From an uncultured Ignavibacteria bacterium (GTDB lineage Bacteria > Zixibacteria > MSB-5A5 > CAIYYT01): DNA of 64,000 nucleotides. Where the stretch lies: assembly GCA_964552775.1 (NCBI GenBank), contig CAZKIH010000011.1, forward strand, positions 15,206-79,205, given 5' to 3'. This document shows positions 9,555-36,275 of this stretch, piece by piece. The translations under genes were made by a program, and so were the position numbers. The stretch's first letter is position 1, and the number at the start of each line of letters is the position of its first letter. The notes below the pieces were generated by a model. It was not told the DNA's origin and did not search any database. It worked only from the letters and a program-made list of their open reading frames with translations.

Positions 9555-9800
9555 AGATGTGTCACATTGGAATGAAGCCTGTCGCAACCCGACATTGGGC
9601 TTAAGCTTAATGGAATGGTAGATTGCGACTGAATTCATATAGATGAGAGTGAATTAGATGTCGGTGTAAACTGACTGTCCTTCAACACCTTTCTGATTTG
9701 TATAATTTTCTTAAGATTCTCTTGACTTGTGAGTCGCCCAAAAGATATATTCAGACTCGGAAGTCGCTGGTAGATAATGTGTTAACAATCTGTTAACATC

Positions 9801-10030
9801 TTGTGGATAACAACAAGGACATCTCAGCATTGCGTAGGAGCTCTTCGTAGTTCACTACTGGTTCGGTACCCAAATCGCCGATGTCCACCAAAGAATCATT
9901 AAGGGCTGCGACGGGGCTAATGTTGTATTCGGGCGTAACTCAGAATTTCTAAGGAAATATTTCGGATGACCAACCTCCTCACCGATTCTCGCGTCGGTCG
10001 CGAGCATGAACAATCTTTTTCTTATTCACA
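9801..10030. promoter_or_regulatory. dnaA promoter region with DnaA boxes
   Basis: Perfect TTATCCACA (reverse-complement TGTGGATAA) at 9802-9810. TTATTCACA at 10021-10029. Duplicated GTTAACA motif at 9781-9799. Confidence 0.55.
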
Positions 10031-10045
10031 GTTTACGGGGTAACC

Positions 10046-11419
10046 ATGCAGGAACAAATCAATGCTCTATGGGACAGGTGTCTCTCCAGCTTGTCCAAGC
10101 GCGTGAACAAGCCCTCATTCTTCACGTGGCTCAAGCCAATTCGAGTGGAATTCGTCGACGGCAATTGCTTCAACATACTCGTTCCAAATAATTTCGCGGC
10201 TCATTGGATTTCCGAGCGATATCGCCAGGCAATTAGTGAAGCGCTGGCCGAAGTCTCTGAACAGTCGTGGAATTTCGATTTCAAGATCCAGAAAGCCCCG
10301 GTGCAGGTTGAGATGTTTCCGGGCGAACCGGAGGAGGACCAACCGGCGATCATCGTCAGTGGCAATGGAAGCGGACACAACGGCCACCCAGCCCCAAAGC
10401 TGAATCCACGCTACTTATTTGAGAGCTTTGTCGTTGGTGATTCAAATCAATTCGCCTATGCTGCCTGTGAGGCTGTCTCTGAAGCCCCCGGAGAAAACCG
10501 TTATAACCCTCTCTTCATTTACGGCGGTGTCGGTCTCGGCAAGACTCACTTGGTGCAGGCGATCGGAAATGCCGTCTGCCAATCCAGTCCAAAGCTCCGC
10601 GTCATGTATGTTTCCAGCGAAAACTTCACGAACGAGTTCATTCGTTCCTTGGCCACCAAATCCGTTCACGAGTTTGCCAATCGCTATCGCACGGCTGACC
10701 TCCTTCTGTTGGATGACATTCAGTTCTTCACTGGCAAAGAATCAACCCAAGAGCAGTTCTTTCACACCTTCAATGCCCTGCATCAGGAAGGCAAGCAAAT
10801 CGTCCTGACCGCAGATCGTCCCCCGAAGGACATCCTTGGTCTCGAGGAAAGATTATTGTCGCGATTCAGCTGGGGACTGGTAGCCGATATTCAACCTCCG
10901 TCACTCGAAACCCGGGTAGCAATTCTGCAGAAGAAAGCCGAGAGTGATGGTGTCACCGTTCCCAATGACGTACTCACCTATATTGCCGATTCGATCACAT
11001 CAAATGTCCGTGAGCTTGAAGGCGCTTTGGTAAGACTCGTCGCCTATGCCTCCCTGCGCAAAAAAGAATTAACGATGTTGTTAGCCCAGGACGTCCTCAA
11101 AGACTCCATTCGCTCAAAGTCGAAGCCGGTGACCATTGAACAAATCCAGAAGGAAGTAGCGTCCTATTTCAAGATTTCTGAAGAGATGTTGAAGTCAAAA
11201 AAGAAGACTCAGGAAATTGTTACGGCACGTCAGGTGGCCATGTATCTTTGCAGAACACTAACAAGTTCATCTCTCAAACTGATTGGCATCAACTTTGGAA
11301 ATCGCGATCATTCGACTGTTATCCATGCCTGCCAACAAGTGCAGGACAATATGAAATCCTCAATGGATTTCAAATTGCAGATTGATCAACTCATCAACTT
11401 GACATGTAGTCACAAGTAG
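10046..11419 (+). CDS. dnaA: Chromosomal replication initiator DnaA
   Basis: AAA+ Walker A GGVGLGKTHL, LLLDDIQF, and the C-terminal DnaA-box-binding domain (ARQVAMYLCR...). Confidence 0.97.
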   Translation: MQEQINALWDRCLSSLSKRVNKPSFFTWLKPIRVEFVDGNCFNILVPNNFAAHWISERYRQAISEALAEVSEQSWNFDFKIQKAPVQVEMFPGEPEEDQPAIIVSGNGSGHNGHPAPKLNPRYLFESFVVGDSNQFAYAACEAVSEAPGENRYNPLFIYGGVGLGKTHLVQAIGNAVCQSSPKLRVMYVSSENFTNEFIRSLATKSVHEFANRYRTADLLLLDDIQFFTGKESTQEQFFHTFNALHQEGKQIVLTADRPPKDILGLEERLLSRFSWGLVADIQPPSLETRVAILQKKAESDGVTVPNDVLTYIADSITSNVRELEGALVRLVAYASLRKKELTMLLAQDVLKDSIRSKSKPVTIEQIQKEVASYFKISEEMLKSKKKTQEIVTARQVAMYLCRTLTSSSLKLIGINFGNRDHSTVIHACQQVQDNMKSSMDFKLQIDQLINLTCSHK

Positions 11420-11654
11420 GTGTATAACACTGTGGAAAAAATGACGGAAAAGAATTACTTCACAATCAATCCAAGTTTTCCATGTACACCAGTGTTGTTG
11501 TCAACACCACAGCAAACTCGCATGTTGTTCCATGACAAGAATATCCCTTTACAAAAAAACTTCTCCACACTACTATTATGACTATTATTCTTAGATTAAC
11601 TTAAGTTTATAACAAGAGTGCGGCGGCAATTGTGAATACTGAGGAAGCAACAAA
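11420..11654. promoter_or_regulatory. dnaA-dnaN intergenic region: candidate oriC / DNA unwinding element
   Basis: DnaA-box-like 9-mers TGTGGAAAA (11431-39), TTTTCCATG (11476-84), TTCTCCACA (11561-69). AT-rich tract 11541-11610. Confidence 0.4.
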
Positions 11655-12764
11655 ATGAAATTCACTTTAACAACTGACAAAATCCAATCAGCTCTAAGCG
11701 CGGTAATGAGTGCTGTACCGACTAAATCAACTTTGCCTATCCTTGGTAATATTCTTATGGAAGCTGATGGCAAATCTTTGAGCCTATCTGCAACTGATTT
11801 GGAGATTTCAATCACGACGTCGTTGGAAGTTAAGGCTGCCAAAAAGGGATCAGTTGCCATTCCGGCTAAGACATTTGCCGATATTATCAACGCACTTCCT
11901 CAGACTGAAATCGAAATTGAATCAGTTAATAACCGCATTGAAATGCGCTTTGGCACCGGTGATTACAAAATCTCCGGAATGTCCGCCGATGAATTTCCCA
12001 AACTTCCCGAATACGATGCTAAAAAAGAAATCCGCATTCCCGCTGATGTCGTCCGCAACTTGATTGCCAAGACCGCCTATTCGGTCTCAACCGATGAGAC
12101 TCGCCCAGCACTCAATGGCATTCTTTGGCAGACCAATGGGGAGCGGATGCGCATGGTGGCCACCGATGGTCATCGTTTGTCGCGCGCCGAGGCCGACAAC
12201 ACCAAATTGCAGGGTTTGCATGGCGATGTTATCGTCCCACCCAGAGCATTCAATCTGATCAACAAACTGGCAAGTGAGAGTGTTAGCGAGGTCGGCGTTG
12301 TATTTGGTGAAAACACCCTTGTGTTCATCTGTGGTAATAACACGATCAGCACGCGCATCATCGAAGGTCCGTACCCGAACACCGATCAGGTGATTCCTCG
12401 CAACAACGACAAGAATTTGATTGTCCCCAAAACGCTGCTGATGGAAACCCTCCGCCGCGTATCGATTCTCTCCAATTCACTGACCCGCCAGGTCAAGTTT
12501 ACCATCACGAACAATACCCTCGAACTCTCGGCAACCAATGTTGATCTTGGTGGTGAAGCTGTCGAGAAGATCCCTTGTCAGTATGATTCCGATGACTTGG
12601 AAATCGGCTACAATGCCCAGTATGTCCTCGATATCCTCAAACAGCTCGACGGCGACGAAGTGCGTTTCGCACTGTCGTCCTCAACCGCAGCCGCAGTTGT
12701 AACCTCCCTCGACGACGGCGCTGATTATCTCTGCCTGGTCATGCCACTCAGACTAGCGGACTAA
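11655..12764 (+). CDS. dnaN: DNA polymerase III beta sliding clamp DnaN
   Basis: 369 aa; canonical three-domain clamp sequence (MKFTLTTDKIQSALS..., ...LCLVMPLRL). Confidence 0.95.
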   Translation: MKFTLTTDKIQSALSAVMSAVPTKSTLPILGNILMEADGKSLSLSATDLEISITTSLEVKAAKKGSVAIPAKTFADIINALPQTEIEIESVNNRIEMRFGTGDYKISGMSADEFPKLPEYDAKKEIRIPADVVRNLIAKTAYSVSTDETRPALNGILWQTNGERMRMVATDGHRLSRAEADNTKLQGLHGDVIVPPRAFNLINKLASESVSEVGVVFGENTLVFICGNNTISTRIIEGPYPNTDQVIPRNNDKNLIVPKTLLMETLRRVSILSNSLTRQVKFTITNNTLELSATNVDLGGEAVEKIPCQYDSDDLEIGYNAQYVLDILKQLDGDEVRFALSSSTAAAVVTSLDDGADYLCLVMPLRLAD

Positions 12765-12823: not shown

Positions 12824-13609
12824 GTAGGTCAGACATTCCTGTCTGACCAGCGACCGAAGGTCGCTCAGGGTTTGAGATGAATGATTCCCCTAGATTGAAG
12901 ATCGCGACCCGCCATTTGCCTCACTGGGAGTTGGAGGGATCCTTCTATTACATAACCTTCAGAGTCAAGCAGGGGACTCTGCATGATACGGAGGCATCTG
13001 TCCTAAGGAAACGTCTGCTTGAGGGGCACGGGAAGCACTGTCAGCTTATCGCATTCGTAATCATGCCCAATCATGTTCATCTCGTGCTGTCTCCTCGTCA
13101 GGGAATGACGCTTAGTCGGATACTCAAAGGAATAAAGGGAAAGTCCGCTCGCGAGATAAATACACTGCGAAAGACATCCGGTCCAGTATGGCAAGCCGAG
13201 TCATTTGATAGAATTATTCGGGACGAAACAGAGCTGACAGAAAAACTAAACTACATGCTCAATAATCCAGTAAGAGCGAGACTAACTGCAAATTCTTGGG
13301 AATATGAAGGTTGGTATTTCAATACCGACATTGCGGCTTCGCCGCAATGACAGGCAAGAATGTCTGTCCCACCAATACTGTTTCGCCGCGCTTTAGTAGG
13401 TCAGACATTCCTGTCTGACCAGCGACCGAAGGTCGCTCGAACATATTCAGCTTAGCGGGGTTTTGCGGGAAAGTGAGGAGTGGTACTTTAACTTTGATCT
13501 TGCGGCTTCGCCGCAATGACAGACAAGAATGTCTGTCCCACCAACGCACTGCAACGGACCTTCACAGTAGGTCAGACATTCCTGTCTGACCAGCGACCGA
13601 AGGTCGCTG
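12824..13609. mobile_element. RAYT/REP unit: REP-A, RAYT gene, then two tandem copies of (RAYT 3'-tail remnant + REP-A)
   Basis: Identical 42-nt REP-A GTAGGTCAGACATTCCTGTCTGACCAGCGACCGAAGGTCGCT at 12824-12865, 13396-13437 and 13568-13609. Duplicated tail TTGCGGCTTCGCCGCAATGACAG(G/A)CAAGAATGTCTGTCCCACCAA at 13335-13377 and 13501-13545. Confidence 0.8.
12877..13350 (+). CDS. REP-associated tyrosine transposase (RAYT, IS200/IS605-like Y1 transposase)
   Basis: HuH motif IMPNHVHLVL; catalytic Tyr region EKLNYMLNNPV. Flanked by REP hairpins. Confidence 0.85.
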   Translation: MNDSPRLKIATRHLPHWELEGSFYYITFRVKQGTLHDTEASVLRKRLLEGHGKHCQLIAFVIMPNHVHLVLSPRQGMTLSRILKGIKGKSAREINTLRKTSGPVWQAESFDRIIRDETELTEKLNYMLNNPVRARLTANSWEYEGWYFNTDIAASPQ

Positions 13610-13646: not shown

Positions 13647-14555
13647 CTACGTTACCGCCACCGCCAGAACCAACGAGTTGTATTTCAAATCAATTGAGTC
13701 GTGTCCAGAGGTAATCACCGCCGGCACCTTGCCGCCGGTGACAATAAGACCCGCTTCGCTCTTCGTGTACATTGTGAGTGCTTTGTAAATACCATAGCTG
13801 GTCGCCAGGTTCGGACCGATCAGAATCTCGGCCTTGCCGGCGACTTCGCCTTTAGCGCCTTTTTCTTTGGCCGCGCTTTCCATCAACGCCACATCCATCG
13901 ATAGGGGACCGTCGACAAGACAATTCTTAATTTGGCCCTTGTCAACCATCTTGGAAATAACAGCCTCGACAATCGTCACCGGCATCTGTGGATAAATCAC
14001 TTCGACCGCAGCAAGCAACGCAACCTTGGGCAATGGGTTGTCCAGCTTGCGAGCAAGTGCCACGGCATTGTTAAGGATGTCAACCAGGTCCATCATTTCA
14101 GGATCAGGATTCACTATCGGATCAGAGAGTATTAACAGCCGATCCATTTGAGCGCTCTTGCAGACAAGATGCCCCGACACGAGATTCTTGGCAACGCGGA
14201 ATCCCAGCTTGCGCTCGAATAGTAACGACAGGAAATCTTTGGCACCAAATACACCCTTGCAGATTCCGCCAACCTTGCCGTCGCGAATCAGTTCGAGCGC
14301 TTGATACGCTGAATAGTTCGGCTCCGGCGAACGCACCAGTTCCCAACCGAGCACGTCAACACCGACCTCCTTGGAGGCTTTTGCGATCGCCGCCTCGTCG
14401 CCGATCATCACCGGCTTAACCAGACGATTCTTCATGGCACGATCAATCGCCTGAATCAGCTTCGGTTCGTGCGGCTCAACAAACGCGATCAATAGAGGAT
14501 CAACAGCCTTTTCGCGAGCCAGTTTTTCGATGTCAGAGAAATTCTTCAACATCAC
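13647..14555 (-). CDS. ptb: Phosphate butyryl/acetyltransferase (PTA_PTB family)
   Basis: 302 aa PTA_PTB-family fold. 4-nt overlap with the upstream paralog. Confidence 0.75.
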   Translation of the reverse strand: MMLKNFSDIEKLAREKAVDPLLIAFVEPHEPKLIQAIDRAMKNRLVKPVMIGDEAAIAKASKEVGVDVLGWELVRSPEPNYSAYQALELIRDGKVGGICKGVFGAKDFLSLLFERKLGFRVAKNLVSGHLVCKSAQMDRLLILSDPIVNPDPEMMDLVDILNNAVALARKLDNPLPKVALLAAVEVIYPQMPVTIVEAVISKMVDKGQIKNCLVDGPLSMDVALMESAAKEKGAKGEVAGKAEILIGPNLATSYGIYKALTMYTKSEAGLIVTGGKVPAVITSGHDSIDLKYNSLVLAVAVT

Positions 14556-28004: not shown

Positions 28005-28020
28005 CGTTTCACGTGAAACG
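28005..28020. promoter_or_regulatory. parS-like centromere site CGTTTCACGTGAAACG
   Basis: Matches the central 14-mer GTTTCACGTGAAAC of the parS consensus TGTTTCACGTGAAACA. Lies in the mnmG upstream region. Confidence 0.6.
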
Positions 28021-28075: not shown

Positions 28076-29938
28076 ATGAGGGATTTTGATGTAATTGTCA
28101 TTGGTGGAGGCCATGCCGGAATCGAAGCTGCCGCAGCGACTGCCCGCATGGGTGCTTCTACGGCTATAATCAGTGGTGAACTCTCCAAGATCGGTGAAAT
28201 GTCATGCAATCCGGCAATCGGCGGCGTCGGAAAAGGACAACTAGTCCGCGAAATTGATGCTCTCGGTGGACTAATGGGGCACATCACCGATCAAGCCGGA
28301 ATTCACTTCCGAACGCTGAACAAAAGCAAAGGACCTGCTGTCTGGTCTTCGCGGGCTCAATGTGATCGCAGGCTCTATCGAGAGTTCGCTCAGGAGGCAC
28401 TCGCACGACTCAACGGTCTCCATCTCATTGCCGGGATGGTTGTTGGCGTAATCGCAGAAGGTCGGGAATTCAACCGGATCGTCCTCAAGGACGGTCGAGA
28501 CATCTCAGCAAGGGCGTGTGTTCTCGCCTCAGGCACATTTCTTAATGGCCTCATTCACATCGGCGAAGAGCAGATTCCTGCCGGTCGAGTCAATGAGGCG
28601 CCGGCGCTGCATCTCTCGGAATCATTACAAGCTCTGGGCTTTCAGACAGGTAGGCTGAAAACCGGCACACCGCCACGCCTCGAGGGCGAGACGATCGACT
28701 TCAGCAAAATGGAGCCACAGCCCGGCGATGATGATTTCTACCCATTTTCGCTGAGAACACGTGAGTCTGTCAAGAATAGAGCCTTGTGCCATATAACCTA
28801 CACCTCGACGAAGACTCACGCAATTGTCGATGCCAACCTGCATCGCTCTGCAATGTTCTCTGGGAGTATCCAAGGTATCGGACCTCGTTATTGCCCGTCC
28901 ATCGAAGATAAAGTCCATCGGTTCCGTGACAAGGACCGCCATCAATTGTTTATTGAACCTGAGGGCCTTGACACTACTGAAATCTATATAAACGGACTTT
29001 CGACTTCGTTACCGTCGGATGTCCAACTCGATATTCTCCATTCTATTTCCGGCCTTGAAGATGTTGTCATGAAACGCCCCGGGTATGCTATCGAATATGA
29101 CTTCTTTCCTGCCTACCAGATAAAGCCAACGCTCGAGACACGACTAATCGACAATCTGTACTTCTGCGGACAGATCAACGGTACATCTGGATATGAAGAA
29201 GCCGCCGCACAGGGATTAATGGCAGGCATCAATGCAGTTGCTAAGCTTAGGGATAATCCCCAAATAGTATTGGACAGAGCGCAGGCCTATATCGGTGTGA
29301 TGATTGACGATTTGGTCACCCGAGTACCAATGGAGCCTTATCGAATGTTCACGTCGAGAGCTGAATACCGACTTGCACTGCGCGAGGATAACGCCGCCGA
29401 TCGATTGATCAACATTGGAAGAGGCCTCGGGCTGGTCAACAATGAAATGATGGATAGCTTCTTGTCTGGCCGGGACGCCATCGATCAGGAGAGTCGGCGC
29501 CTTCACCAGACATCAGTCCCAGCAGCCTGGGTTGATACGACCGCCAACGGCGACAAACTTCCCATGGGCATCCTGCTCAAGCGGCCAAACGTGACTTATG
29601 ATAACTTCCGGGGCATCGATGAGACTTGCGCTGGATTCCCGAAGAGACTTTCAGAAAAGCTGGAAATCTCAATCAAATACGCTGGTTACATGGAAAAACA
29701 ACAGCGCGAGATTGACCGCTTCCGGCAACTTGAGTCTCGAAAAATACCCGAGAGTTTGGATATTTCCGCGCTTTCAGGTCTGAAGAGAGAAGCGGTAGCT
29801 ACATTGGAAAAATATCACCCAGTCAATCTGGGTCAAGCCTCGCGATTAAACGGAATCACATATTCTGATATCACAGTGCTGATGATTCACTTAAAGCGCC
29901 ACTATGCTGACTCTGTTTCACGTGAAACACCCCAATGA
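28076..29938 (+). CDS. mnmG: tRNA uridine 5-carboxymethylaminomethyl modification enzyme MnmG (GidA)
   Basis: FAD motif VIVIGGGHAGIEAA; full-length GidA. Confidence 0.97.
   Translation: MRDFDVIVIGGGHAGIEAAAATARMGASTAIISGELSKIGEMSCNPAIGGVGKGQLVREIDALGGLMGHITDQAGIHFRTLNKSKGPAVWSSRAQCDRRLYREFAQEALARLNGLHLIAGMVVGVIAEGREFNRIVLKDGRDISARACVLASGTFLNGLIHIGEEQIPAGRVNEAPALHLSESLQALGFQTGRLKTGTPPRLEGETIDFSKMEPQPGDDDFYPFSLRTRESVKNRALCHITYTSTKTHAIVDANLHRSAMFSGSIQGIGPRYCPSIEDKVHRFRDKDRHQLFIEPEGLDTTEIYINGLSTSLPSDVQLDILHSISGLEDVVMKRPGYAIEYDFFPAYQIKPTLETRLIDNLYFCGQINGTSGYEEAAAQGLMAGINAVAKLRDNPQIVLDRAQAYIGVMIDDLVTRVPMEPYRMFTSRAEYRLALREDNAADRLINIGRGLGLVNNEMMDSFLSGRDAIDQESRRLHQTSVPAAWVDTTANGDKLPMGILLKRPNVTYDNFRGIDETCAGFPKRLSEKLEISIKYAGYMEKQQREIDRFRQLESRKIPESLDISALSGLKREAVATLEKYHPVNLGQASRLNGITYSDITVLMIHLKRHYADSVSRETPQ
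29914..29929. promoter_or_regulatory. Perfect parS site TGTTTCACGTGAAACA embedded in the last codons of mnmG
   Basis: Exact 16/16 match to the parS consensus. Encodes ...SVSRETP... of MnmG, 6 nt before the rsmG start. Confidence 0.7.
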
Positions 29939-30558
29939 CCCTTGAGCCGGTCTGGAAAAACCTCCTCGTCGAGTCCTTGCCATCACGCATTGCGGATCCT
30001 GAATCGTTGATCAATCGATTTCGAGGTTATCTCCTCGAAGTTAACGTGCACATCAATCTGATTGCGCGCACCGACACAAGCAGCATCATCGACGGGCTGA
30101 TCTTTGACTCCTTATCAATGCTGAGACATATCAACTACTCTGGCGGCGCATTGGTATTGGACATTGGGTCCGGCGCCGGATTCCCCTGGGTCCTCCACAA
30201 GTTGATGCGGCCTGACCTCCGCATCGTAAGTGTCGATTCGAATCGCCGCAAAATAGAATTCCAGCGGAATGTGTGCCGACTGATAGGCCTCGAAAACTGC
30301 AGATTAGTTGCCGACCGAATTGAGAGCCTTGCCCCCCTCGGTGCAGACTTCGCCATAGCAAAAGCGGTTGGTACAATCGACCAAATCAGCCATCTCGCAG
30401 CACCCCATCTCAAGCAGGGAGCTTTCCTCGTCCTTCCCAGAGGAATTTCTGAACCACACTTTCAGCCAATTCCCGGTTTCCTTCTGAAAAGCTCGTTCGA
30501 GTACCAAAGTTCGCCTAATGGCCGGTTCTCCAGCCTGGTTACTCTCGAGAAATCGTAA
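29935..30558 (+). CDS. rsmG: 16S rRNA (guanine527-N7)-methyltransferase RsmG (GidB)
   Basis: SAM-binding motif LDIGSGAGFP. Confidence 0.9.
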   Translation: MTLEPVWKNLLVESLPSRIADPESLINRFRGYLLEVNVHINLIARTDTSSIIDGLIFDSLSMLRHINYSGGALVLDIGSGAGFPWVLHKLMRPDLRIVSVDSNRRKIEFQRNVCRLIGLENCRLVADRIESLAPLGADFAIAKAVGTIDQISHLAAPHLKQGAFLVLPRGISEPHFQPIPGFLLKSSFEYQSSPNGRFSSLVTLEKS

Positions 30559-30652
30559 AGTCTATCCGTTCTTTGACAAGTTTTTATTGCGAAATGTCTG
30601 TATAATCATAAATTAGCAATCGCGAACGGACTCGTGTAATCAGGAGGGATTT

Positions 30653-31411
30653 CTGGCAAAAATATTCGCCGTGGTCAATCAGAAGGGCGGCGTCGGTAAG
30701 ACGACCACTGCCATCAATCTTTCCGCCTGTATCGCAATCGCTGAAAAGTCAACCCTACTCGTCGACCTGGATCCCCAGTCAAATGCTACTTCCGGAATGG
30801 GTGTCGACAAAAGAAATCTCGCCGTCTCCATTTATGACGTCCTGAACGACGACAAGAGTGTCGAGGAAGTCATTCTCAAGACCAACATCAAGTACCTGGA
30901 CTTAATACCGGCCAATATCAACCTGGTGGCGGCTGAGCTTGAGTTGGTTGAACGCAATGGTCGTGAGACAATCCTGCGAGATAAGTTGGCGGCAATTAAG
31001 GACTACTATGACTACATTGTGATCGATTGTCCACCATCATTAGGACTTCTAACATTGAATGCGCTGGTTGCCGCCGACCACCTCCTGATCCCCATTCAGG
31101 CCGAATACTACGCGCTCGAGGGGCTCGGTCAGCTGATCAGTACGATTGGATTGGTGCAACAAAATCTCAATCGCAATTTGACGATAGGTGGAATTCTCAT
31201 CACAATGTTCGACCCGCGCCTGAACCTTGCTCGTCAGGTCGTGGAAGAAACTCGGAATCATTTCAAGGACAAAGTCTTTGCTACGATAATCAACCGCAAT
31301 GTCCGCCTTGGCGAGGCGCCGTCTTTCGGCAAGCCGATCATCCTGTATGATATCGGTTCAACCGGAGCTGAGAACTACATCTCGCTGACGGAGGAGGTCT
31401 TACGGATATGA
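30653..31411 (+). CDS. parA: Chromosome partitioning ATPase ParA/Soj (start uncertain; likely non-ATG)
   Basis: Deviant Walker A NQKGGVGKTTTAINLSA. Strong SD AGGAGGG at 30642-30648; in-frame CTG at 30653 and GTG at 30671 are the start candidates. Confidence 0.85.
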   Translation: MAKIFAVVNQKGGVGKTTTAINLSACIAIAEKSTLLVDLDPQSNATSGMGVDKRNLAVSIYDVLNDDKSVEEVILKTNIKYLDLIPANINLVAAELELVERNGRETILRDKLAAIKDYYDYIVIDCPPSLGLLTLNALVAADHLLIPIQAEYYALEGLGQLISTIGLVQQNLNRNLTIGGILITMFDPRLNLARQVVEETRNHFKDKVFATIINRNVRLGEAPSFGKPIILYDIGSTGAENYISLTEEVLRI

Positions 31412-32292
31412 AAAAACCGGCACTCGGAAAAGGTCTGTCGGCGCTGATTCCTACCGCTCTATACGCGCCGGCGGTACCGGAGATGCATCCTGAGCCTGAA
31501 CACGGCGACAGGTTTGTGATGGTCTCGCTTGACAAGTTGATCGCCAATCCAAATCAGCCGCGCAAGTATTTCGCGGAGGAGAAATTGAGTCAGCTTGCAG
31601 ATTCCATCGCCCAAAAAGGAGTGCTGCAGCCGATCCTCGTGCGCCAGATCAACGGTAAATTCCAGATCGTCGCCGGTGAACGGCGCTTTCGTGCTGCCGA
31701 ACGACTCGGCTTGGCGGAAGTCCCGGCTCGGATCGTCGAGCACTTGGATGATCGCGACATGCTCGAGATTTCCATTGTCGAAAACCTGCAGCGCGATGAT
31801 CTCAATCCTCTGGAATTGGCGGAGGGCTATCAACGCCTCGTAACGGAATTCAGCTTGACCCAGGTCGAGCTTTCCACCCGAGTTGGTAAGGACCGCTCTT
31901 CGGTCGCCAACACGTTACGGTTGCTGAATCTCCCAAATGAAGTGAAAGCAAGAATAGCTACGGGTGAACTGAAGGAAGGTCACGCGCGCGCGATCCTCGC
32001 CTTGGAGACTGAAAAAGAGCAGTTGGAGCTTGCGCGTAAAATCATCGAAGAAGATTTGACCGTCCGGGCAATCGAAGAGATCATCTACGGCGGGCAGCGC
32101 AAGAAGCGGGGACGCAGCTTGAAACTGAAAACTCGCCCAATTGAAATTTCACAAGCCGAAACTGCGCTCAAACGCAGACTTGGTACCGCGGTGACAATTC
32201 AGCGCGGTCTGAAACGCGGGAAAATCACCATTCAATTCTATGGCGATTCCGATCTGACGCGCATCCTCGAACTCCTGGGAGTTGAACTCTAA
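31408..32292 (+). CDS. parB: Chromosome partitioning protein ParB/Spo0J
   Basis: ParB box GERRFRAAE; HTH; C-terminal dimerisation domain. Confidence 0.95.
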   Translation: MKKPALGKGLSALIPTALYAPAVPEMHPEPEHGDRFVMVSLDKLIANPNQPRKYFAEEKLSQLADSIAQKGVLQPILVRQINGKFQIVAGERRFRAAERLGLAEVPARIVEHLDDRDMLEISIVENLQRDDLNPLELAEGYQRLVTEFSLTQVELSTRVGKDRSSVANTLRLLNLPNEVKARIATGELKEGHARAILALETEKEQLELARKIIEEDLTVRAIEEIIYGGQRKKRGRSLKLKTRPIEISQAETALKRRLGTAVTIQRGLKRGKITIQFYGDSDLTRILELLGVEL

Positions 32293-33117
32293 ATGTCGAG
32301 AAGCGATCAACAGATTACGTTGATGCTGATCTTTGAGACCGGCAAGTCGCCCCTGACTCTGAAATTCTCTCGGCTGCTGTACTATACCGTGCTGGGTGTT
32401 ATTGCGCTTTTGATCATCATCTCGATTGTCGGGACCTTCACCTATGCACGCTTGCTGGTGCATTCCAGCGAGCGGGAACAACTCACACAGGAAAACGAAG
32501 AACTGCGTCGCCTGAATTCAAAAGTTGTATTATTAGAAAGTAATCTTCAGGCGTATCGAGACATGCTCAGTCAGGTCGCCACTCTGGCAGGAATTGACTT
32601 GAGCCAGTATGGGATGCAGATTCCAACCGAAGGAGGCGAAGTAGCTGGGTCGAATCAGCTCCCGCGGGAGCCGGCCCTGATCACGGACCAGGCTGATCTC
32701 AATGCAGGGCCTGTCAGCGAGCCGAAAGGCCTGCCGGTACAGGGCTTTGTCTCACGCACATTTCGGCCAACTGCGGATAACCCGAGAACACGCCATCTGG
32801 GAATCGATCTGGCAGTAAAGAAAGGAACCCGCGTTATTGCCACGGCAGACGGTGAAGTAACTTTCGCCGGATGGGATGACGCTTTTGGCTGGAAGGTTGT
32901 ATTGAAACACCCGAACAATGTCGAAACTATGTATGGACACAACGACTCGATATTAGTCGCCATTGGTCAACACGTTCGTTACGGTCAGACGATTGCACTC
33001 TCGGGCAGCACTGGAGTCAGCACTGCACCGCATGTCCATTATGAACTTCGCGTTGACGGACTACCTGTTAATCCGGAAGAATATTATGGCAAAGACAATA
33101 ATTCCAAATCTCATTAA
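32293..33117 (+). CDS. M23 family metallopeptidase with N-terminal TM anchor and coiled coil
   Basis: HLGIDLA..., GYG..., and HVHYELR zinc-ligand motifs. Confidence 0.85.
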   Translation: MSRSDQQITLMLIFETGKSPLTLKFSRLLYYTVLGVIALLIIISIVGTFTYARLLVHSSEREQLTQENEELRRLNSKVVLLESNLQAYRDMLSQVATLAGIDLSQYGMQIPTEGGEVAGSNQLPREPALITDQADLNAGPVSEPKGLPVQGFVSRTFRPTADNPRTRHLGIDLAVKKGTRVIATADGEVTFAGWDDAFGWKVVLKHPNNVETMYGHNDSILVAIGQHVRYGQTIALSGSTGVSTAPHVHYELRVDGLPVNPEEYYGKDNNSKSH

Positions 33118-33130
33118 AGGAGAAGAGACG

Positions 33131-33511
33131 ATGGCAGAAAATCTGAGCACCATCATCGGAAAGGATAGTGTTTTCACTGGAACCATGGAGGTGAAGGGCA
33201 CTCTTCGCGTCGACGGCAAATTGAAAGGCAAAATCGTATCGGATGAAACTGTCTCTATCGGATCGACGGGTGAGGTCGAGGCAGACATTGAGGCCAAGAT
33301 CGTGATCGTTTCCGGTACGGTTGTCGGAAACATCCATTCCTCGGAAAAAACCGAAATGCAGGCTAAAGCCAAGGTAGTAGGTGACTTAGTCACAAAAAGC
33401 ATCGTCATCGAGCAAGGTGCCATATTTCATGGCTCATGCCAGATGAAAGGCCTAAAAGAATTCGACCAGAAACCCGATAATAAGATGGTAGATAAGAAAC
33501 CGCAACTCTAA
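33131..33511 (+). CDS. Bactofilin (CcmA/DUF583 beta-helical cytoskeletal protein)
   Basis: Repetitive beta-helix segments (VFTGTMEVKGTLRVDGKLKGKIV...). RBS AAGGAGAAGAG before ATG 33131, an internal Met of the 32963 ORF. Confidence 0.8.
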   Translation: MAENLSTIIGKDSVFTGTMEVKGTLRVDGKLKGKIVSDETVSIGSTGEVEADIEAKIVIVSGTVVGNIHSSEKTEMQAKAKVVGDLVTKSIVIEQGAIFHGSCQMKGLKEFDQKPDNKMVDKKPQL

Positions 33512-33678
33512 TCAAGTTGTAACAGTTTGCCTGTGTGGATAACGTGAGCAACAATGTGGAAATTGTTGTAACGTATTGGAAGATAGCATAATGCGGTCTG
33601 GACTTAACGATACGATTTAAGGGTTATCCACAAGAGCTTGATTTAAGAATGTTTAGATTTCTGTAAGGCGGATTCACT
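33512..33678. promoter_or_regulatory. Intergenic DnaA-box cluster (alternative oriC candidate / DnaA-regulated promoter)
   Basis: Perfect TGTGGATAA at 33534-33542. TGTGGAAAT at 33555-33563. Perfect TTATCCACA at 33624-33632. AT-rich. Confidence 0.45.
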
Positions 33679-34383
33679 TTGGGCACATTCTTTCTCACAG
33701 CCGGGACAGTTTTGTTCTTCGTCGGTCTCGGATGTCTACTATTTGTGTTTGTCTCTATCGCTCGCCGACTGAGAGACAATATTACTACATCGGTCTACTT
33801 TAGAAGCAAGCGCTCTGCGAGGCCATGGATTCTCTCAGGTGCCGGAATTCTGTTGATCGCCATTGCTCAGTGTTTCTACTGGTTCAACAATGAAGTGGAA
33901 CGCTTCATTCCTTTTAATGCTGACACGCCCCAGGCGCAGATAAGCTTTCTTTATGAAGAATACAAACAACCTCGCCTTGTCGTCCAAGTTACTGATAGCA
34001 ACAATTTGACTACTTCACAAATGGTTCCCTTTACGGCAGACAGCGTCGCACTCGGAGTTGAGATTGTTCATTGGAAGAAAGTTTGCCAGGTGATTGGACT
34101 CAAGGACTGCTATCGCATCAACGGCATCTACTATCTGAGCGGAGCCGGCGACACGCTACTGACATTATCGCGAATCCCAAATCATGAGTTGAATGGCGGA
34201 CAGTCGGGGTTTGTCGGATTGGTGCAGGCGATCGGCTCAGCGTTTCCGGGTGAGCTGAAGTTGTACCTCTCGCAGCCGATCGTAACGGATGGCAGCTCCA
34301 GATATTTGACACAGATTGCCTGGGATGCTGTTACCACCACTCGTTTGATTGACAAACCAACCGCCGTGAATTATCCTCGTTAA
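33679..34383 (+). CDS. Hypothetical membrane-anchored protein (TTG start)
   Basis: Two N-terminal TM helices; no recognisable domain. Confidence 0.4.
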   Translation: MGTFFLTAGTVLFFVGLGCLLFVFVSIARRLRDNITTSVYFRSKRSARPWILSGAGILLIAIAQCFYWFNNEVERFIPFNADTPQAQISFLYEEYKQPRLVVQVTDSNNLTTSQMVPFTADSVALGVEIVHWKKVCQVIGLKDCYRINGIYYLSGAGDTLLTLSRIPNHELNGGQSGFVGLVQAIGSAFPGELKLYLSQPIVTDGSSRYLTQIAWDAVTTTRLIDKPTAVNYPR

Positions 34384-34522
34384 CTGAAAACAATTTGGGC
34401 ACTATGGCCGCTTATCCGTATAAGCGATTATGGCGCGTGCGACTTTCAGACCAGGCTCGTACTGTCTGTAAAACCATCATTGTCGCAGTCTTGAATCAAT
34501 ACGGCACCGGTCGGAGGAGCAG

Positions 34523-35527
34523 ATGACAGATCAGATAAGAGAGTCCGCAGACTTGCAGGCGGTAGAAAGACTAAGAGACGCCCGGGCAAGAATCAAGGCC
34601 GAGGTAGGGAAGGTCATTATTGGACAAGATCGTGTCATCGACGAGCTACTTATCGCCCTCCTTTCAAATGGCCACTGCCTGCTTGTCGGGGTGCCCGGAT
34701 TGGCGAAGACCCTGCTGATATCCACCTTGGCACGCGTTCTTGACCTGAAATTTTCACGCATCCAGTTCACTCCCGACCTTATGCCTTCTGATATCACGGG
34801 AACTGAAATCCTCGAGGAAAACAAATCAACCGGACAGCGCGATTTCAGATTCGTGAAGGGACCAGTCTTTGCAAATATCGTTCTGGCCGATGAAGTCAAC
34901 CGTACGCCACCCAAAACCCAGGCAGCGCTCTTGCAGGCAATGCAAGAGCACGAGGTCACAGCGTCTGGCCATACCTTCAAACTTGAGGAGCCATTCTTCG
35001 TTCTCGCGACTCAGAACCCGATCGAGCAAGAAGGAACCTATCCACTGCCGGAAGCTCAACTGGACCGTTTCATGTTTAACATCTTCGTAGACTATCCCTC
35101 TTATGATGAAGAGCATGCTATTGTAAAATCCACGACCGCAGTCATGCGGCATGAGTTGGGCAAAGTCATGAGCGGAGTCGATATTCAGCAGCTCCAACAG
35201 CTCGTGCGCAAGGTCCCGGTCTCGGATCACGTGATTGATTATGCCATCAAGCTTGTCCGAGCGACCCGTCGTACCGAGGCCCAGGTCCGTGACTACATCG
35301 CCAACTGGGTCACCTGGGGCGCTGGTCCCCGTGCTTCGCAGTACCTGATTCTTGGTGCCAAGACCAATGCAATACTCAACGGACGTTATACTCCTTCAAT
35401 TGAAGATGTTCAGTATGTCGCCAGACCGGTTCTTCGGCACCGGATTGTGACATCATTCAATGCCGAGGCTGACGGTGTCGATGCACTGCAGATCATTGAC
35501 AAATTGCTTGCAGACGTGAAAGAATAA
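34523..35527 (+). CDS. MoxR-family AAA+ ATPase
   Basis: Walker A VGVPGLAKTLL; Walker B/sensor VLADEVNRTPPKTQAALLQAMQE. Confidence 0.9.
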   Translation: MTDQIRESADLQAVERLRDARARIKAEVGKVIIGQDRVIDELLIALLSNGHCLLVGVPGLAKTLLISTLARVLDLKFSRIQFTPDLMPSDITGTEILEENKSTGQRDFRFVKGPVFANIVLADEVNRTPPKTQAALLQAMQEHEVTASGHTFKLEEPFFVLATQNPIEQEGTYPLPEAQLDRFMFNIFVDYPSYDEEHAIVKSTTAVMRHELGKVMSGVDIQQLQQLVRKVPVSDHVIDYAIKLVRATRRTEAQVRDYIANWVTWGAGPRASQYLILGAKTNAILNGRYTPSIEDVQYVARPVLRHRIVTSFNAEADGVDALQIIDKLLADVKE

Positions 35528-35654
35528 CGGGCACTCTACCGTCTCTCTCGGATATGTCCGGTAAGACAGAATTCGTAACGAATCTACCGAGATAACCTGA
35601 TATTCCTGAACATTCTGATCACACCCACGCAATTTATTCGTATATTCTCCCCCT

Positions 35655-36275
35655 TTGACCTTCCCTTATCTCTCTAACAAGGAGTCACTTGTGACAATCA
35701 TTCAAAAACTCCGTTTCTGGGGTACCAAAGTGTCCGCGGCAATTCTCGTGTTCGGCCTTGTCGCTGGCATTGCCTGCGGTCAAAGCGCCGGAGACAACTC
35801 CCGGACAATCGTGGAAGACTACTTCAAGGCGGCGCGCGCCGGTGATTGGAGCGCTTGTGCTCTGACCGTACATCCCACGGATCTCGGCAAATTCAAGGGA
35901 ACATTGGTTCCGCTTCTGACCAATATCAAAGATTCAGGTAATCCCGCCGACCCGCTTCTCCCATTCTTCACCGATACCAAGGACTGGGAGGGTATCTTTG
36001 CCAAGGATTCTGTCGTCTTTTTCTCAAGCACAATGAGCTGGATCTCCAGCCTGGCGCCGCAGATCGGAATGATAATGGGCGGAAATGAAGTGCAATTTGT
36101 AGGCTCAGTTGACGAAGGAAAAGAAACTCGACACTTCGTCTTCCATATGAAATTGCAGCCTGACGATACGGAATCATCCACTGACGTCATCACCGTGCGC
36201 AAATCCGACGGTAAGTGGCTGGTGATAATGGGCGGGACCATAAATCAACTTGCTGGCCTTTTCCGAAGAGGATAG
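35655..36275 (+). CDS. Hypothetical secreted protein; paralog of the ORF at 63282-63866
   Basis: Signal-peptide-like N-terminus. C-terminal region ...HFVFHMK...VITVRKSDGKWLVI... is shared with the 63282-63866 ORF. Confidence 0.5.
   Translation: MTFPYLSNKESLVTIIQKLRFWGTKVSAAILVFGLVAGIACGQSAGDNSRTIVEDYFKAARAGDWSACALTVHPTDLGKFKGTLVPLLTNIKDSGNPADPLLPFFTDTKDWEGIFAKDSVVFFSSTMSWISSLAPQIGMIMGGNEVQFVGSVDEGKETRHFVFHMKLQPDDTESSTDVITVRKSDGKWLVIMGGTINQLAGLFRRG

What the first reader, a model, noticed from the sequence alone, without database searches (positions are those of the whole stretch)
33512..33678. Second, stronger DnaA-box cluster downstream of parAB-M23-bactofilin
Two perfect 9-mers (TGTGGATAA and TTATCCACA, in inverted orientation) plus TGTGGAAAT lie within 100 nt of AT-rich DNA, 23 kb from dnaA. 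Either oriC is here, uncoupled from dnaA, or this is a DnaA-regulated promoter for the downstream membrane-protein/MoxR genes.
Basis: seen in the sequence. Interest (0 to 1): 0.55.

Follow-up and report, generated by a model that had tools for sequence, protein, structure and literature searches.

The report
Conserved non-origin DnaA-box module
The three DnaA-binding sites are real and are kept, with the same spacing, just after the chromosome-partition genes across the uncultivated phylum Zixibacteria, but they do not mark the replication origin; they are most likely a regulatory landing pad for the replication initiator.

Summary
Two perfect DnaA boxes (33534-42 on the minus strand, 33624-32 on the plus strand) and one weak box (33555-63) fill the 167-bp gap between a bactofilin gene and a membrane-protein/MoxR operon. 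This is far more than chance gives.

The module is deeply conserved. All 15 related genomes keep both perfect boxes exactly 90 bp apart, in a gapless alignment. Five of five independently sampled, distant Zixibacteria lineages carry the same layout: box, 21 bp, weak box, then an inverted perfect box at +90/91. In every case it sits right after the mnmG-rsmG-parA-parB(-M23)(-bactofilin) array, while the downstream gene varies.

It is not oriC. There is no AT-rich unwinding element and no DnaA-trios. GC skew does not change sign at the module. In six relatives with strong strand skew the same strand stays G-rich on both sides, whereas the same test flips at 14 of 18 dnaA-dnaN box clusters from other phyla.

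It is not specifically a MoxR promoter either. No sigma-70-type promoter is detectable, and the partner gene is not conserved.

Best reading: a DnaA-binding regulatory element outside the origin, of the same kind as the B. subtilis DnaA-box clusters, Pseudomonas oriCII, and datA/DARS. Its exact role, transcriptional barrier or operator versus control of DnaA itself, is unresolved.

The parts
33534..33542 (-). DnaA box 1, perfect TTATCCACA (reads TGTGGATAA on the + strand)
   Evidence: It is perfect in 13 of the 14 related genome loci that hold this position (TGTGGAAAA in L013; contig L012 starts downstream of it). In distant lineages it is TGTGGATAA, TGTTGATAA, or the degenerate TGTTTATAA.
33555..33563 (-). 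DnaA box 2, a weak site (TGTGGAAAT on the + strand, 2 mismatches), 21 bp from box 1 in the same orientation
   Evidence: TGTGGA is invariant in the 15-sequence family alignment while the last three bases vary. The 21-bp offset is kept in all nine lineages, and seven of them keep TGTGGA (A6).
33624..33632 (+). DnaA box 3, perfect TTATCCACA, inverted relative to boxes 1 and 2, 90 bp from box 1
   Evidence: It is perfect in every related locus examined, at +90 or +91 from box 1.
33564..33623 (.). 60-bp spacer of fixed length. Invariant positions are A33570, T33577, A33585, T33592, TTAA 33604-07, TTA 33617-19 and G33623; apart from G33623, which abuts box 3, all are A or T. A33570, A33585 and T33592 are also invariant across nine deep lineages.
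   Evidence: Gapless alignments A3 and A6. No RNA structure or covariation was found.
33636..33659 (+). Conserved GCTTGA (33636-41), TG (33650-51) and TTA (33653-55), with TAGATT at 33654-59. A TTGA motif followed 13-14 nt later by TA recurs after box 3 in all lineages. It could be a weak fourth box (TGTTGAnnn type) or a non-canonical promoter element.
   Evidence: Alignments and the sequences. The sigma-70 scan finds nothing here, and the motif occurs only once in the window.
33665..33681 (+). Shine-Dalgarno-like AAGGCGG and the TTG start codon of the 234-aa membrane protein
   Evidence: Read from the sequence. The region is conserved in A3.
28076..33511 (+). Upstream co-directional array: mnmG (28076-29938), rsmG (29935-30558), parA (30671-31411), parB (31408-32292), M23 peptidase (32293-33117), bactofilin (33131-33511). 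The module always follows the last gene of this array.
   Evidence: Pfam results. Synteny.
33679..36275 (+). Downstream genes in this genome: a 234-aa membrane protein with no known family (33679-34383), a MoxR AAA+ ATPase (34523-35527), and a 206-aa ORF with no known family (35655-36275)
   Evidence: Distant homologues of the membrane protein follow the module in L054, L069 and L146, but not in L147-L150, L113 or L026.
29914..29929 (.). Perfect parS palindrome TGTTTCACGTGAAACA, with a second near-perfect site at 28005-28020. This places the module 3.6 kb from the partition site.

Best explanation
This is a DnaA-binding module outside the replication origin, conserved across Zixibacteria at the 3' end of the chromosome-partition operon (mnmG-rsmG-parA-parB, with or without M23 and bactofilin).

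Proposed mechanism (inferred):
- DnaA occupies the two high-affinity boxes (1 and 3) most of the time.
- The weak box 2, two helical turns from box 1, is filled cooperatively when active DnaA is abundant.
- The fixed 60-bp spacer, whose invariant positions are almost all A/T, lets the two oppositely oriented DnaA assemblies form one defined complex, probably on bent DNA.
- That complex works as a DnaA-dependent barrier or operator between the partition operon and whatever lies downstream. In this genome that is the membrane-protein/MoxR operon, whose start codon is 46 nt after box 3.
- By the same binding, it also acts as a high-affinity reservoir or regulator of DnaA in the par/dnaA region of the chromosome.

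What is shown: the sites, their conservation, their geometry, their genomic position, the absence of origin features, and a DnaA protein whose DNA-reading helix is conserved.

What is inferred: actual DnaA occupancy, cooperativity, bending, and the effect on transcription or on DnaA activity.
For: - The boxes are real and non-random.
- Both perfect boxes are kept with exact spacing where the contig covers them in 15 related genomes, although the flanking membrane protein falls to 43% identity. The one exception is L013, where box 1 reads TGTGGAAAA; L012 begins downstream of box 1. The alignment is gapless.
- The same 21/90-91 layout is found in 5 of 5 evaluable ParB loci from distant Zixibacteria that were not selected by DNA pattern. 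It is also found in the pattern hits L054, L069, L112, L113 and L026.
- In the nine-lineage alignment, three spacer positions outside the boxes are invariant too.
- Position and orientation relative to the par array are constant, while the downstream gene and its distance vary.
- The DnaA of this genome keeps the recognition motif RDH(S/T)TV(I/L)HA and the R/Q positions of E. coli domain IV.
- Origin features are absent: there is no skew inflection (control), no DnaA-trios and no strongly AT-rich stretch.
- It is not an RNA.
- There are precedents for DnaA-box clusters outside the origin that regulate transcription or DnaA. In B. subtilis, eight intergenic DnaA sites lie mostly near oriC, act as repressors or roadblocks, and one sits at the 3' ends of convergent genes (PMC2533591). 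Pseudomonas oriCII lies at gidAB-parAB (PMC13438810). E. coli has datA and DARS (PMC10380432).
Against: - There is no direct evidence of DnaA binding, or of any effect on transcription or on DnaA.
- There are only 2-3 boxes, fewer than the 4-10 in the B. subtilis clusters.
- No canonical promoter or terminator is present in the gap, so the transcriptional role is unanchored.
- In L146, boxes 1 and 2 are degenerate at 2 mismatches each.
- In L026 the module sits upstream of MoxR with no par operon nearby, so the link to the par array is not absolute.
- The location of the true origin is unknown, so 'origin-proximal reservoir' cannot be verified.
Confidence: 0.6

Rival explanations
1. The module is the chromosomal replication origin (oriC), or the DnaA-assembly half of it, uncoupled from dnaA.
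For: - It is the strongest and best-conserved DnaA-box cluster in the window.
- The arrangement TGTGGATAA ... TTATCCACA, with outer boxes inverted, resembles the outer boxes of known origins. The 21/90 geometry is also the commonest among dnaA-dnaN box clusters of other phyla.
- It lies beside gidAB-parAB and parS, which is a typical origin neighbourhood.
- In some lineages it sits in a 0.5-1.4 kb non-coding region.
- The dnaA-dnaN gap shows no skew flip either.
Against: - GC skew at four-fold sites is +0.2 to +0.5 on both sides of the module in L001-L006, for genes of both orientations. It is about -0.1 on both sides in the window, and shows no minus-to-plus flip in L142 or L146-L148.
- The same test detects 14 of 18 control origins.
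- There are no DnaA-trios (at most 1 of 8) and no AT-rich unwinding stretch.
- In this genome only 22 nt and 46 nt separate the outer boxes from coding sequence.
- The whole par array would be transcribed head-on into the origin.
Confidence: 0.05
2. It is a classical DnaA-controlled promoter/operator dedicated to the downstream membrane-protein/MoxR operon. DnaA at box 3 represses or activates RNA polymerase.
For: - Box 3 sits 46 nt before the start codon. The distance from box 3 to the start codon is fixed, within 1 nt, across 15 genomes, with conserved motifs in between.
- A TAnnnT hexamer lies 21 nt after box 3, which would place DnaA near the -35 position.
- A membrane protein of the same family follows the module in three deep lineages.
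- In L026 and L082, box clusters lie directly upstream of MoxR.
- DnaA is a known transcription factor (PMC8203912 abstract; PMC2533591).
Against: - No sigma-70-type promoter is detected, although the dnaA and dnaN promoters of this clade are canonical.
- In L147-L150 and L113 the module is intact while the next gene is unrelated and 73 nt to 1.2 kb away.
- In L069 and L146, MoxR lies about 7 kb away.
Confidence: 0.2
3. It is a dedicated regulator of DnaA itself, a functional analogue of datA or DARS. The geometry-locked complex, possibly with a DNA-bending protein on the spacer, changes the nucleotide state of DnaA or sequesters it. Any effect on neighbouring genes is incidental.
For: - Strict conservation of spacing, and of spacer positions outside the boxes, over deep divergence is what datA and DARS require. 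There, spacing between the boxes and the IHF site is essential (PMC10380432).
- The module is independent of the downstream gene.
- It combines strong and weak boxes.
- It lies in the dnaA/par neighbourhood.
Against: - The geometry differs from both models. In datA, boxes 2 and 3 are in the same orientation and 162 bp apart. In DARS, the head-to-head boxes I and II are the essential feature.
- No IHF consensus is found in the spacer (own inspection of A3).
- Orientation relative to transcription is always the same, which pure titration would not need.
- No functional data exist.
Confidence: 0.15

Closest known systems
Pseudomonas oriCII (the DnaA-box cluster at the gidAB-parAB operon)
   Same: It is a second, origin-like cluster of DnaA boxes beside the gidAB-parAB genes. 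It is conserved across whole families, is not the chromosomal origin, is bound by DnaA, and links replication initiation to the segregation genes (PMC13438810).
   Different: oriCII lies upstream of gidA and overlaps its 5' end. It has 5-9 boxes and activates the operon promoter, and it can drive plasmid replication. The Zixibacteria module lies at the 3' end of the array and has 3 boxes in a fixed 21/90 geometry. No promoter has been identified for it, and its replication activity is untested.
Bacillus subtilis DnaA-box clusters outside oriC (for example upstream of thdF-gidA-gidB-noc, and gcp-ydiF)
   Same: These are intergenic clusters of consensus boxes outside the origin, mostly origin-proximal. 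DnaA acts there as a repressor or roadblock and is titrated. One cluster (gcp-ydiF) sits at the 3' ends of genes and is conserved with no clear transcriptional role (PMC2533591).
   Different: The B. subtilis clusters have 4-10 boxes with variable spacing. Here there are only 2 strong boxes and 1-2 weak ones, but the spacing is invariant and some spacer bases are conserved across a phylum.
E. coli datA and DARS1/DARS2
   Same: These are short non-coding loci with about three essential DnaA boxes. Their function depends on exact spacing and on DNA bending, and they regulate DnaA rather than genes (PMC10380432).
   Different: Box orientation and distances do not match (for datA). No IHF or Fis sites are recognisable here. 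Neither ATP hydrolysis nor ADP release has been tested.
The DnaA-assembly region of bacterial oriC
   Same: The outer boxes are inverted and tandem boxes sit two helical turns apart. The same 21/90 pattern is common in dnaA-dnaN origins of other phyla.
   Different: It lacks an unwinding element, DnaA-trios and a skew switch.

Membership tests
Chromosomal replication origin (oriC) | Cluster of DnaA boxes | tested here: met
   Two perfect boxes and one weak box lie within 99 bp.
Chromosomal replication origin (oriC) | Adjacent AT-rich DNA unwinding element | tested here: not met
   The richest 40-bp stretch is 70% AT, against 82% in the dnaA-dnaN gap. The outer boxes are 22 and 46 nt from coding sequence.
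Chromosomal replication origin (oriC) | DnaA-trio repeats next to a box (basal unwinding system) | tested here: not met
   At most 1 of 8 trios lies next to either perfect box, whereas the box at 11561 in the dnaA-dnaN gap has 6 of 8. The trio definition is taken from my own knowledge of Richardson et al. 2016.
Chromosomal replication origin (oriC) | GC-skew sign change (negative to positive) at the site | tested here: not met
   Both flanks have the same sign in the window, L001-L006 and L142. For L146-L148 the result rests on four-fold-site skew of genes in the same orientation, because raw skew in L147 and L148 runs plus to minus, the reverse of an origin. L007-L010 have too little skew to decide, and L007 and L010 show a small raw minus-to-plus change. 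The control flips in 14 of 18 loci.
Chromosomal replication origin (oriC) | Supports initiation or autonomous replication | not testable with these tools
   This needs marker-frequency data or a plasmid replication assay.
Non-origin DnaA-box cluster (B. subtilis type) | Several consensus or near-consensus boxes in a short intergenic stretch outside oriC | tested here: met
   although the site has fewer boxes (2-3) than the 4-10 in the B. subtilis clusters.
Non-origin DnaA-box cluster (B. subtilis type) | Stable DnaA binding in vivo or in vitro | not testable with these tools
   The only indirect support is the conserved DNA-reading motif of this DnaA and purifying selection on the boxes.
DnaA-regulated promoter | A promoter whose core elements overlap or adjoin the boxes | tested here: inconclusive
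   There is no sigma-70 consensus match. Conserved GCTTGA and TG.TTA motifs, and a TAnnnT hexamer 21 nt after box 3, are present.
DnaA-regulated promoter | Box cluster stays with the regulated gene in evolution | tested here: not met
   The downstream gene differs among lineages, while the upstream par array is constant in all but L026.
datA (DnaA-ATP hydrolysis locus) | Boxes 7, 2 and 3 with an IHF site between boxes 2 and 3 at defined spacing | tested here: not met
   In E. coli datA, boxes 2 and 3 are in the same orientation and 162 bp apart. Here the third box is inverted and 69 bp from box 2, and no IHF consensus is present.
DARS (DnaA-reactivating sequence) | Head-to-head boxes I and II, plus box III | tested here: not met
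   Boxes 1 and 2 are head-to-tail and 21 bp apart. The inverted box is 69 bp away.
Structured non-coding RNA | Conserved secondary structure with covariation, or a match to an Rfam family | tested here: not met
   There is no Rfam hit in the gap. The only consensus pairing is box 1 with box 3, with no compensatory changes.

The most novel reading that the evidence does not exclude
Zixibacteria carry a phylum-wide, geometry-locked three-box DnaA complex at the end of the partition operon. It would be an autonomous cell-cycle element: a functional counterpart of datA/DARS, or a device that couples DnaA status to the ParABS/bactofilin segregation machinery. It would have its own, so far undescribed architecture and an unidentified partner protein on the conserved spacer. 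Coupled to this reading, the origin of this clade would lie away from both dnaA and this module.
Probability: 0.2. Interest if true: 0.65.

Novelty: new member of a known kind. Interest (0 to 1): 0.42.

Why it matters
DnaA-box clusters outside the origin control when bacteria start replication and which genes respond to it. They have been studied experimentally in only a few cultivated model species.

This module is a clean, deeply conserved example in an uncultivated phylum. Its spacing is invariant, it is only 99 bp long, and it has a fixed place next to the segregation genes. That makes it a compact test object for how DnaA assemblies outside origins are built and what they do.

It is also a caution for origin prediction: here the strongest DnaA-box cluster is not the origin.

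Tried and rejected
- **RNA element: rejected.** The Rfam search with E-values found nothing in the gap. RNAalifold found only the trivial pairing of box 1 with box 3, with no covariation.
- **Sigma-70 promoter or intrinsic terminator in the gap:** none found. Manual tries with sigma-54, sigma-32 and Bacteroidetes-type -33/-7 spacings did not fit.
- **A genome-wide promoter motif CTTGA...TGnTTA:** it occurs only here.
- **Match to datA geometry: rejected.** I fetched E. coli MG1655 datA, and the box orientation and spacing differ.
- **Function of the downstream 234-aa membrane protein: nothing learned.**
  - No Pfam or NCBIfam family matches it.
  - The AlphaFold model (pLDDT 75) shows two membrane helices plus a beta domain.
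- **Geometry as proof of homology: rejected.** The 21/90 layout is also the commonest among dnaA-dnaN clusters of other phyla. Homology instead rests on synteny and on the shared invariant spacer positions.
- **Locating the true origin: failed.**
  - Only ±10 kb around chosen genes can be fetched, so whole-contig skew could not be computed.
  - The dnaA-dnaN gap looks origin-like by sequence but shows no skew flip in relatives.
- **L151:** not evaluable, because the contig ends before the expected position.

Full report
**The observation.** The range 33512-33678 is the complete 167-bp gap between the stop codon of a bactofilin gene (33131-33511) and the TTG start of a 234-aa membrane protein (33679-34383). 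A MoxR ATPase (34523-35527) follows. Upstream lie mnmG, rsmG, parA, parB and an M23 peptidase, all on the plus strand.

The gap contains three boxes:
- TGTGGATAA at 33534-42, a perfect box on the minus strand;
- TGTGGAAAT at 33555-63, with two mismatches, in the same orientation and 21 bp on;
- TTATCCACA at 33624-32, perfect, inverted, and 90 bp from the first.

The whole 64-kb window has only four perfect 9-mers, against 0.30 expected, and no shuffle in 100 reached four. This is the top-scoring box cluster in the window. dnaA lies at 10046-11419 and dnaN at 11655-12764. Only the 'AT-rich' remark is weak: the gap is 62% AT overall, and its richest 40-bp stretch is 70%.

**Organism and close relatives.** The membrane protein has only 18 relatives in the protein collection, one of them labelled Candidatus Zixiibacteriota. 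A scan of species-representative genomes returned 15 loci whose membrane protein is 43-77% identical. All that extend far enough have the same gene order from mnmG to MoxR.

Box 3 is perfect in all 15, at -54/-55 from the start codon. Box 1 is perfect at -144/-145, exactly 90 bp upstream, in 13 of the 14 loci that reach that far; it reads TGTGGAAAA in L013, and contig L012 begins downstream of it. The alignment from box 1 to the ribosome-binding site has essentially no gaps. Box 3 and the TGTGGA core of box 2 are invariant, and box 1 varies at one base in one locus. The other invariant positions in the spacer are all A or T, apart from G33623, which abuts box 3. Further conserved blocks (GCTTGA, TG.TTA) follow box 3. 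The pattern is conserved blocks separated by variable sequence of fixed length.

**Not an RNA.** Rfam finds nothing in the gap. The consensus fold only pairs box 1 with box 3 and has no compensatory changes.

**Deep conservation.** An exact-pattern scan of metagenome contigs mostly returned dnaA-dnaN gaps of many phyla. The bare 21/90 geometry is therefore common wherever DnaA assembles. The scan also returned the same layout in five informative settings:
- behind parA-parB-M23 (L054, L069);
- behind M23-bactofilin (L113);
- between bactofilin and the membrane protein (L112);
- directly in front of a MoxR gene with unrelated upstream genes (L026).

The ParB of L054 is closest to proteins labelled Zixibacteria and is only 46% identical to the window's ParB.

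To avoid selecting by the DNA pattern, I fetched ParB loci from six further Zixibacteria lineages. One contig ends too early to evaluate. The other five (L146-L150) all carry the module immediately after the last gene of the par array:
- box 1 as TGTTGATAA (degenerate in L146);
- box 2 as TGTGGAnnn 21 bp on (also degenerate, TGCGAATAA, in L146);
- a perfect box 3 at +90 or +91.

A nine-lineage alignment is again almost gapless, and three spacer positions (window 33570, 33585, 33592) are invariant besides the boxes.

The downstream gene is not conserved. It is a distant homologue of the membrane protein followed by a sensor histidine kinase (L054, L069, L146), dockerin-domain proteins about 0.5 kb away (L147, L148), a sensor histidine kinase (L149), a GIY-YIG ORF 1.2 kb away (L150), HflX (L113) or MoxR (L026). 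The constant partner is the 3' end of the partition operon, and the orientation relative to it never changes.

**Is it the origin?** I measured GC skew at four-fold degenerate sites and expressed it on the locus plus strand, so that genes of both orientations can be compared.
- In L001-L006 the values are +0.2 to +0.5 for almost every gene on both sides of the module, whatever the gene's orientation (bactofilin is the one exception). Raw skew is +0.11 to +0.14 on the left and +0.09 to +0.13 on the right. These genomes have strong replication-type asymmetry and no inflection at the module.
- In the window the strand term is about -0.13 on the left and -0.12 on the right.
- L142 and L146-L148 also show no minus-to-plus change.
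- L007-L010 have too little skew to decide.
- As a control, 14 of 18 dnaA-dnaN box clusters from other phyla, taken from the same pattern scan, change from negative to positive within a few kb.

The module also lacks DnaA-trios (at most 1 of 8 next to either perfect box) and lacks a strongly AT-rich stretch. The entire par array would be transcribed head-on into it. I therefore put the oriC reading at about 5%.

**The dnaA region.** The dnaA-dnaN gap has several imperfect boxes. One of them, TTCTCCACA at 11561, is followed at once by CTA CTA TTA TGA CTA TTA TTC TTA (6 of 8 trio matches) and by the most AT-rich 40 bp of the three gaps compared. This block is conserved in relatives. It can equally be read as a near-consensus promoter, TTTACA-N17-TACTAT, with the box in the spacer.

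The region upstream of dnaA has a conserved TTGAC-N18-TATATT promoter, two TGTTAACA palindromes and one box. By sequence, then, the dnaA-dnaN gap is the better origin candidate in the window. Yet skew does not flip there in L140, L141 or L016. The sign of the strand term over the syntenic block is also opposite in the window (about -0.1) and in L001-L006/L140 (about +0.3). The simplest reading is that the origin lies outside this block of more than 40 kb, and that the block is inverted relative to it in one lineage. I could not test this, because only ±10 kb around chosen genes can be fetched. The distance and orientation between dnaA and the module also vary: 22 kb on the same strand in the window, 43 kb in L008's contig, and 16 kb on the opposite strand in L010's contig.

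**Is it a MoxR promoter?** In this genome, box 3 ends 46 nt before the start codon and this interval is conserved. A TAnnnT hexamer lies 21 nt after box 3, which would put DnaA over the -35 position. However, the consensus scan finds no promoter or terminator, although the dnaA and dnaN promoters of the clade are canonical. The phylum-wide comparison also shows that the module persists where the downstream gene is unrelated and far away. A local transcriptional effect, as an operator or as a roadblock to read-through from the par array, remains plausible. It is not the conserved reason for the module.

**What it most likely is.** The DnaA of this genome keeps the DNA-reading helix of E. coli domain IV, including D433, H434 and H439, with T435 replaced by S. 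The standard box consensus should therefore apply.

The features observed are:
- two strong sites and one persistently weak site two helical turns from a strong one;
- an inverted arrangement across a spacer of invariant length, with conserved A/T positions;
- a fixed place and orientation at the end of the partition operon, 3.6 kb from a perfect parS.

Together these point to a defined DnaA-DNA complex outside the origin.

Known elements of this kind are the B. subtilis DnaA-box clusters, Pseudomonas oriCII, and E. coli datA and DARS:
- The B. subtilis clusters are mostly near oriC, act as repressors or roadblocks and as titration sites, and one sits at the 3' ends of genes with an unknown role.
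- Pseudomonas oriCII is an origin-like cluster at gidAB-parAB that is not the origin and that regulates the operon through DnaA.
- E. coli datA and DARS are three-box loci whose spacing is essential.

The module matches none of these in detail. It has fewer boxes than the Bacillus clusters. It sits at the opposite end of the gid-par array from oriCII. Its orientation and distances differ from datA and from DARS. I therefore file it as a new member of the general class of non-origin DnaA-binding elements, with the mechanism inferred rather than shown.

**Verdict.** Its headline interpretation, oriC, is wrong, and its second interpretation is only locally plausible. Interest is moderate. Elements of this class are well known, but a 99-bp module with locked geometry, conserved across an uncultivated phylum and tied to the segregation operon, is a neat and testable case. 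The unresolved position of the origin in this clade adds a second question.

Noticed in passing
window 11420-11654 (dnaA-dnaN gap), especially 11549-11615: The box TTCTCCACA (11561-69) is followed immediately by CTA CTA TTA TGA CTA TTA TTC TTA, which matches 6 of 8 DnaA-trio-like triplets, and by an 82% AT stretch. The block is conserved in relatives. It also reads as a near-consensus promoter, TTTACA-N17-TACTAT, with the box in the spacer. By sequence it looks like an origin unwinding module, yet GC skew does not flip here in relatives L140, L141 and L016.
   Followed up: partly
whole window compared with L001-L006, L140 and L142: The strand-specific GC skew at four-fold sites over the same syntenic block has opposite sign in this genome (about -0.1) and in its close relatives (+0.1 to +0.35). 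This suggests that the block is inverted relative to the origin in one lineage, and that the origin lies outside the block, away from dnaA.
   Followed up: partly
window 29914-29929 and 28005-28020: A perfect parS palindrome, TGTTTCACGTGAAACA, lies at the 3' end of mnmG. A near-perfect one, CGTTTCACGTGAAACG, lies just upstream of mnmG.
   Followed up: no
window 9720-9815 (upstream of dnaA): This stretch holds a conserved TTGAC-N18-TATATT promoter, followed by two TGTTAACA palindromes and a DnaA box (TGTGGATAAC at 9802). The layout looks autoregulatory, with a site for a second, unknown factor. It is conserved in L016, L018 and L019.
   Followed up: partly
window 12877-13350: An IS200-like (Y1 transposase) ORF lies directly after dnaN. 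It is absent at this position in the syntenic loci L016 and L140.
   Followed up: no
window 13987-13995: The fourth perfect DnaA box of the window lies inside a phosphate acetyl/butyryl transferase gene. It is not conserved in relatives and is probably a chance occurrence.
   Followed up: yes
window 433-6130, and L016/L140 1-6600: A type VI secretion gene set (TssC, VipA, ClpV-like ATPases), a Ser/Thr kinase and an FHA protein lie on the minus strand just upstream of the dnaA region. The arrangement is syntenic in relatives.
   Followed up: no
L147 12076-12804 and L148 12165-12883: In distant Zixibacteria, a non-coding stretch of about 720 nt separates M23 from bactofilin. It contains repeated units such as ...GATTTATGGTGAGC(G/A)(G/A)AGTCGAACCATGGTGA... 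Their nature is unknown.
   Followed up: no
L082 2850-3030: A contig with 40% GC carries a dense symmetric array of at least eight DnaA boxes, four or more TGTGGATAA facing four TTATCCACA/TTATACACA. It lies between a divergent short-chain dehydrogenase gene and a MoxR-DUF58 operon. I did not examine whether it is an origin.
   Followed up: no
window 33636-33659 and the equivalent positions in L054, L069 and L146-L150: A TTGA motif followed 13-14 nt later by TA recurs after box 3 in all lineages, 4 nt after the box in the window's family and 17 nt after it in the others. The spacing is too short for a sigma-70 promoter. It may be a weak fourth box of the TGTTGAnnn type.
   Followed up: partly
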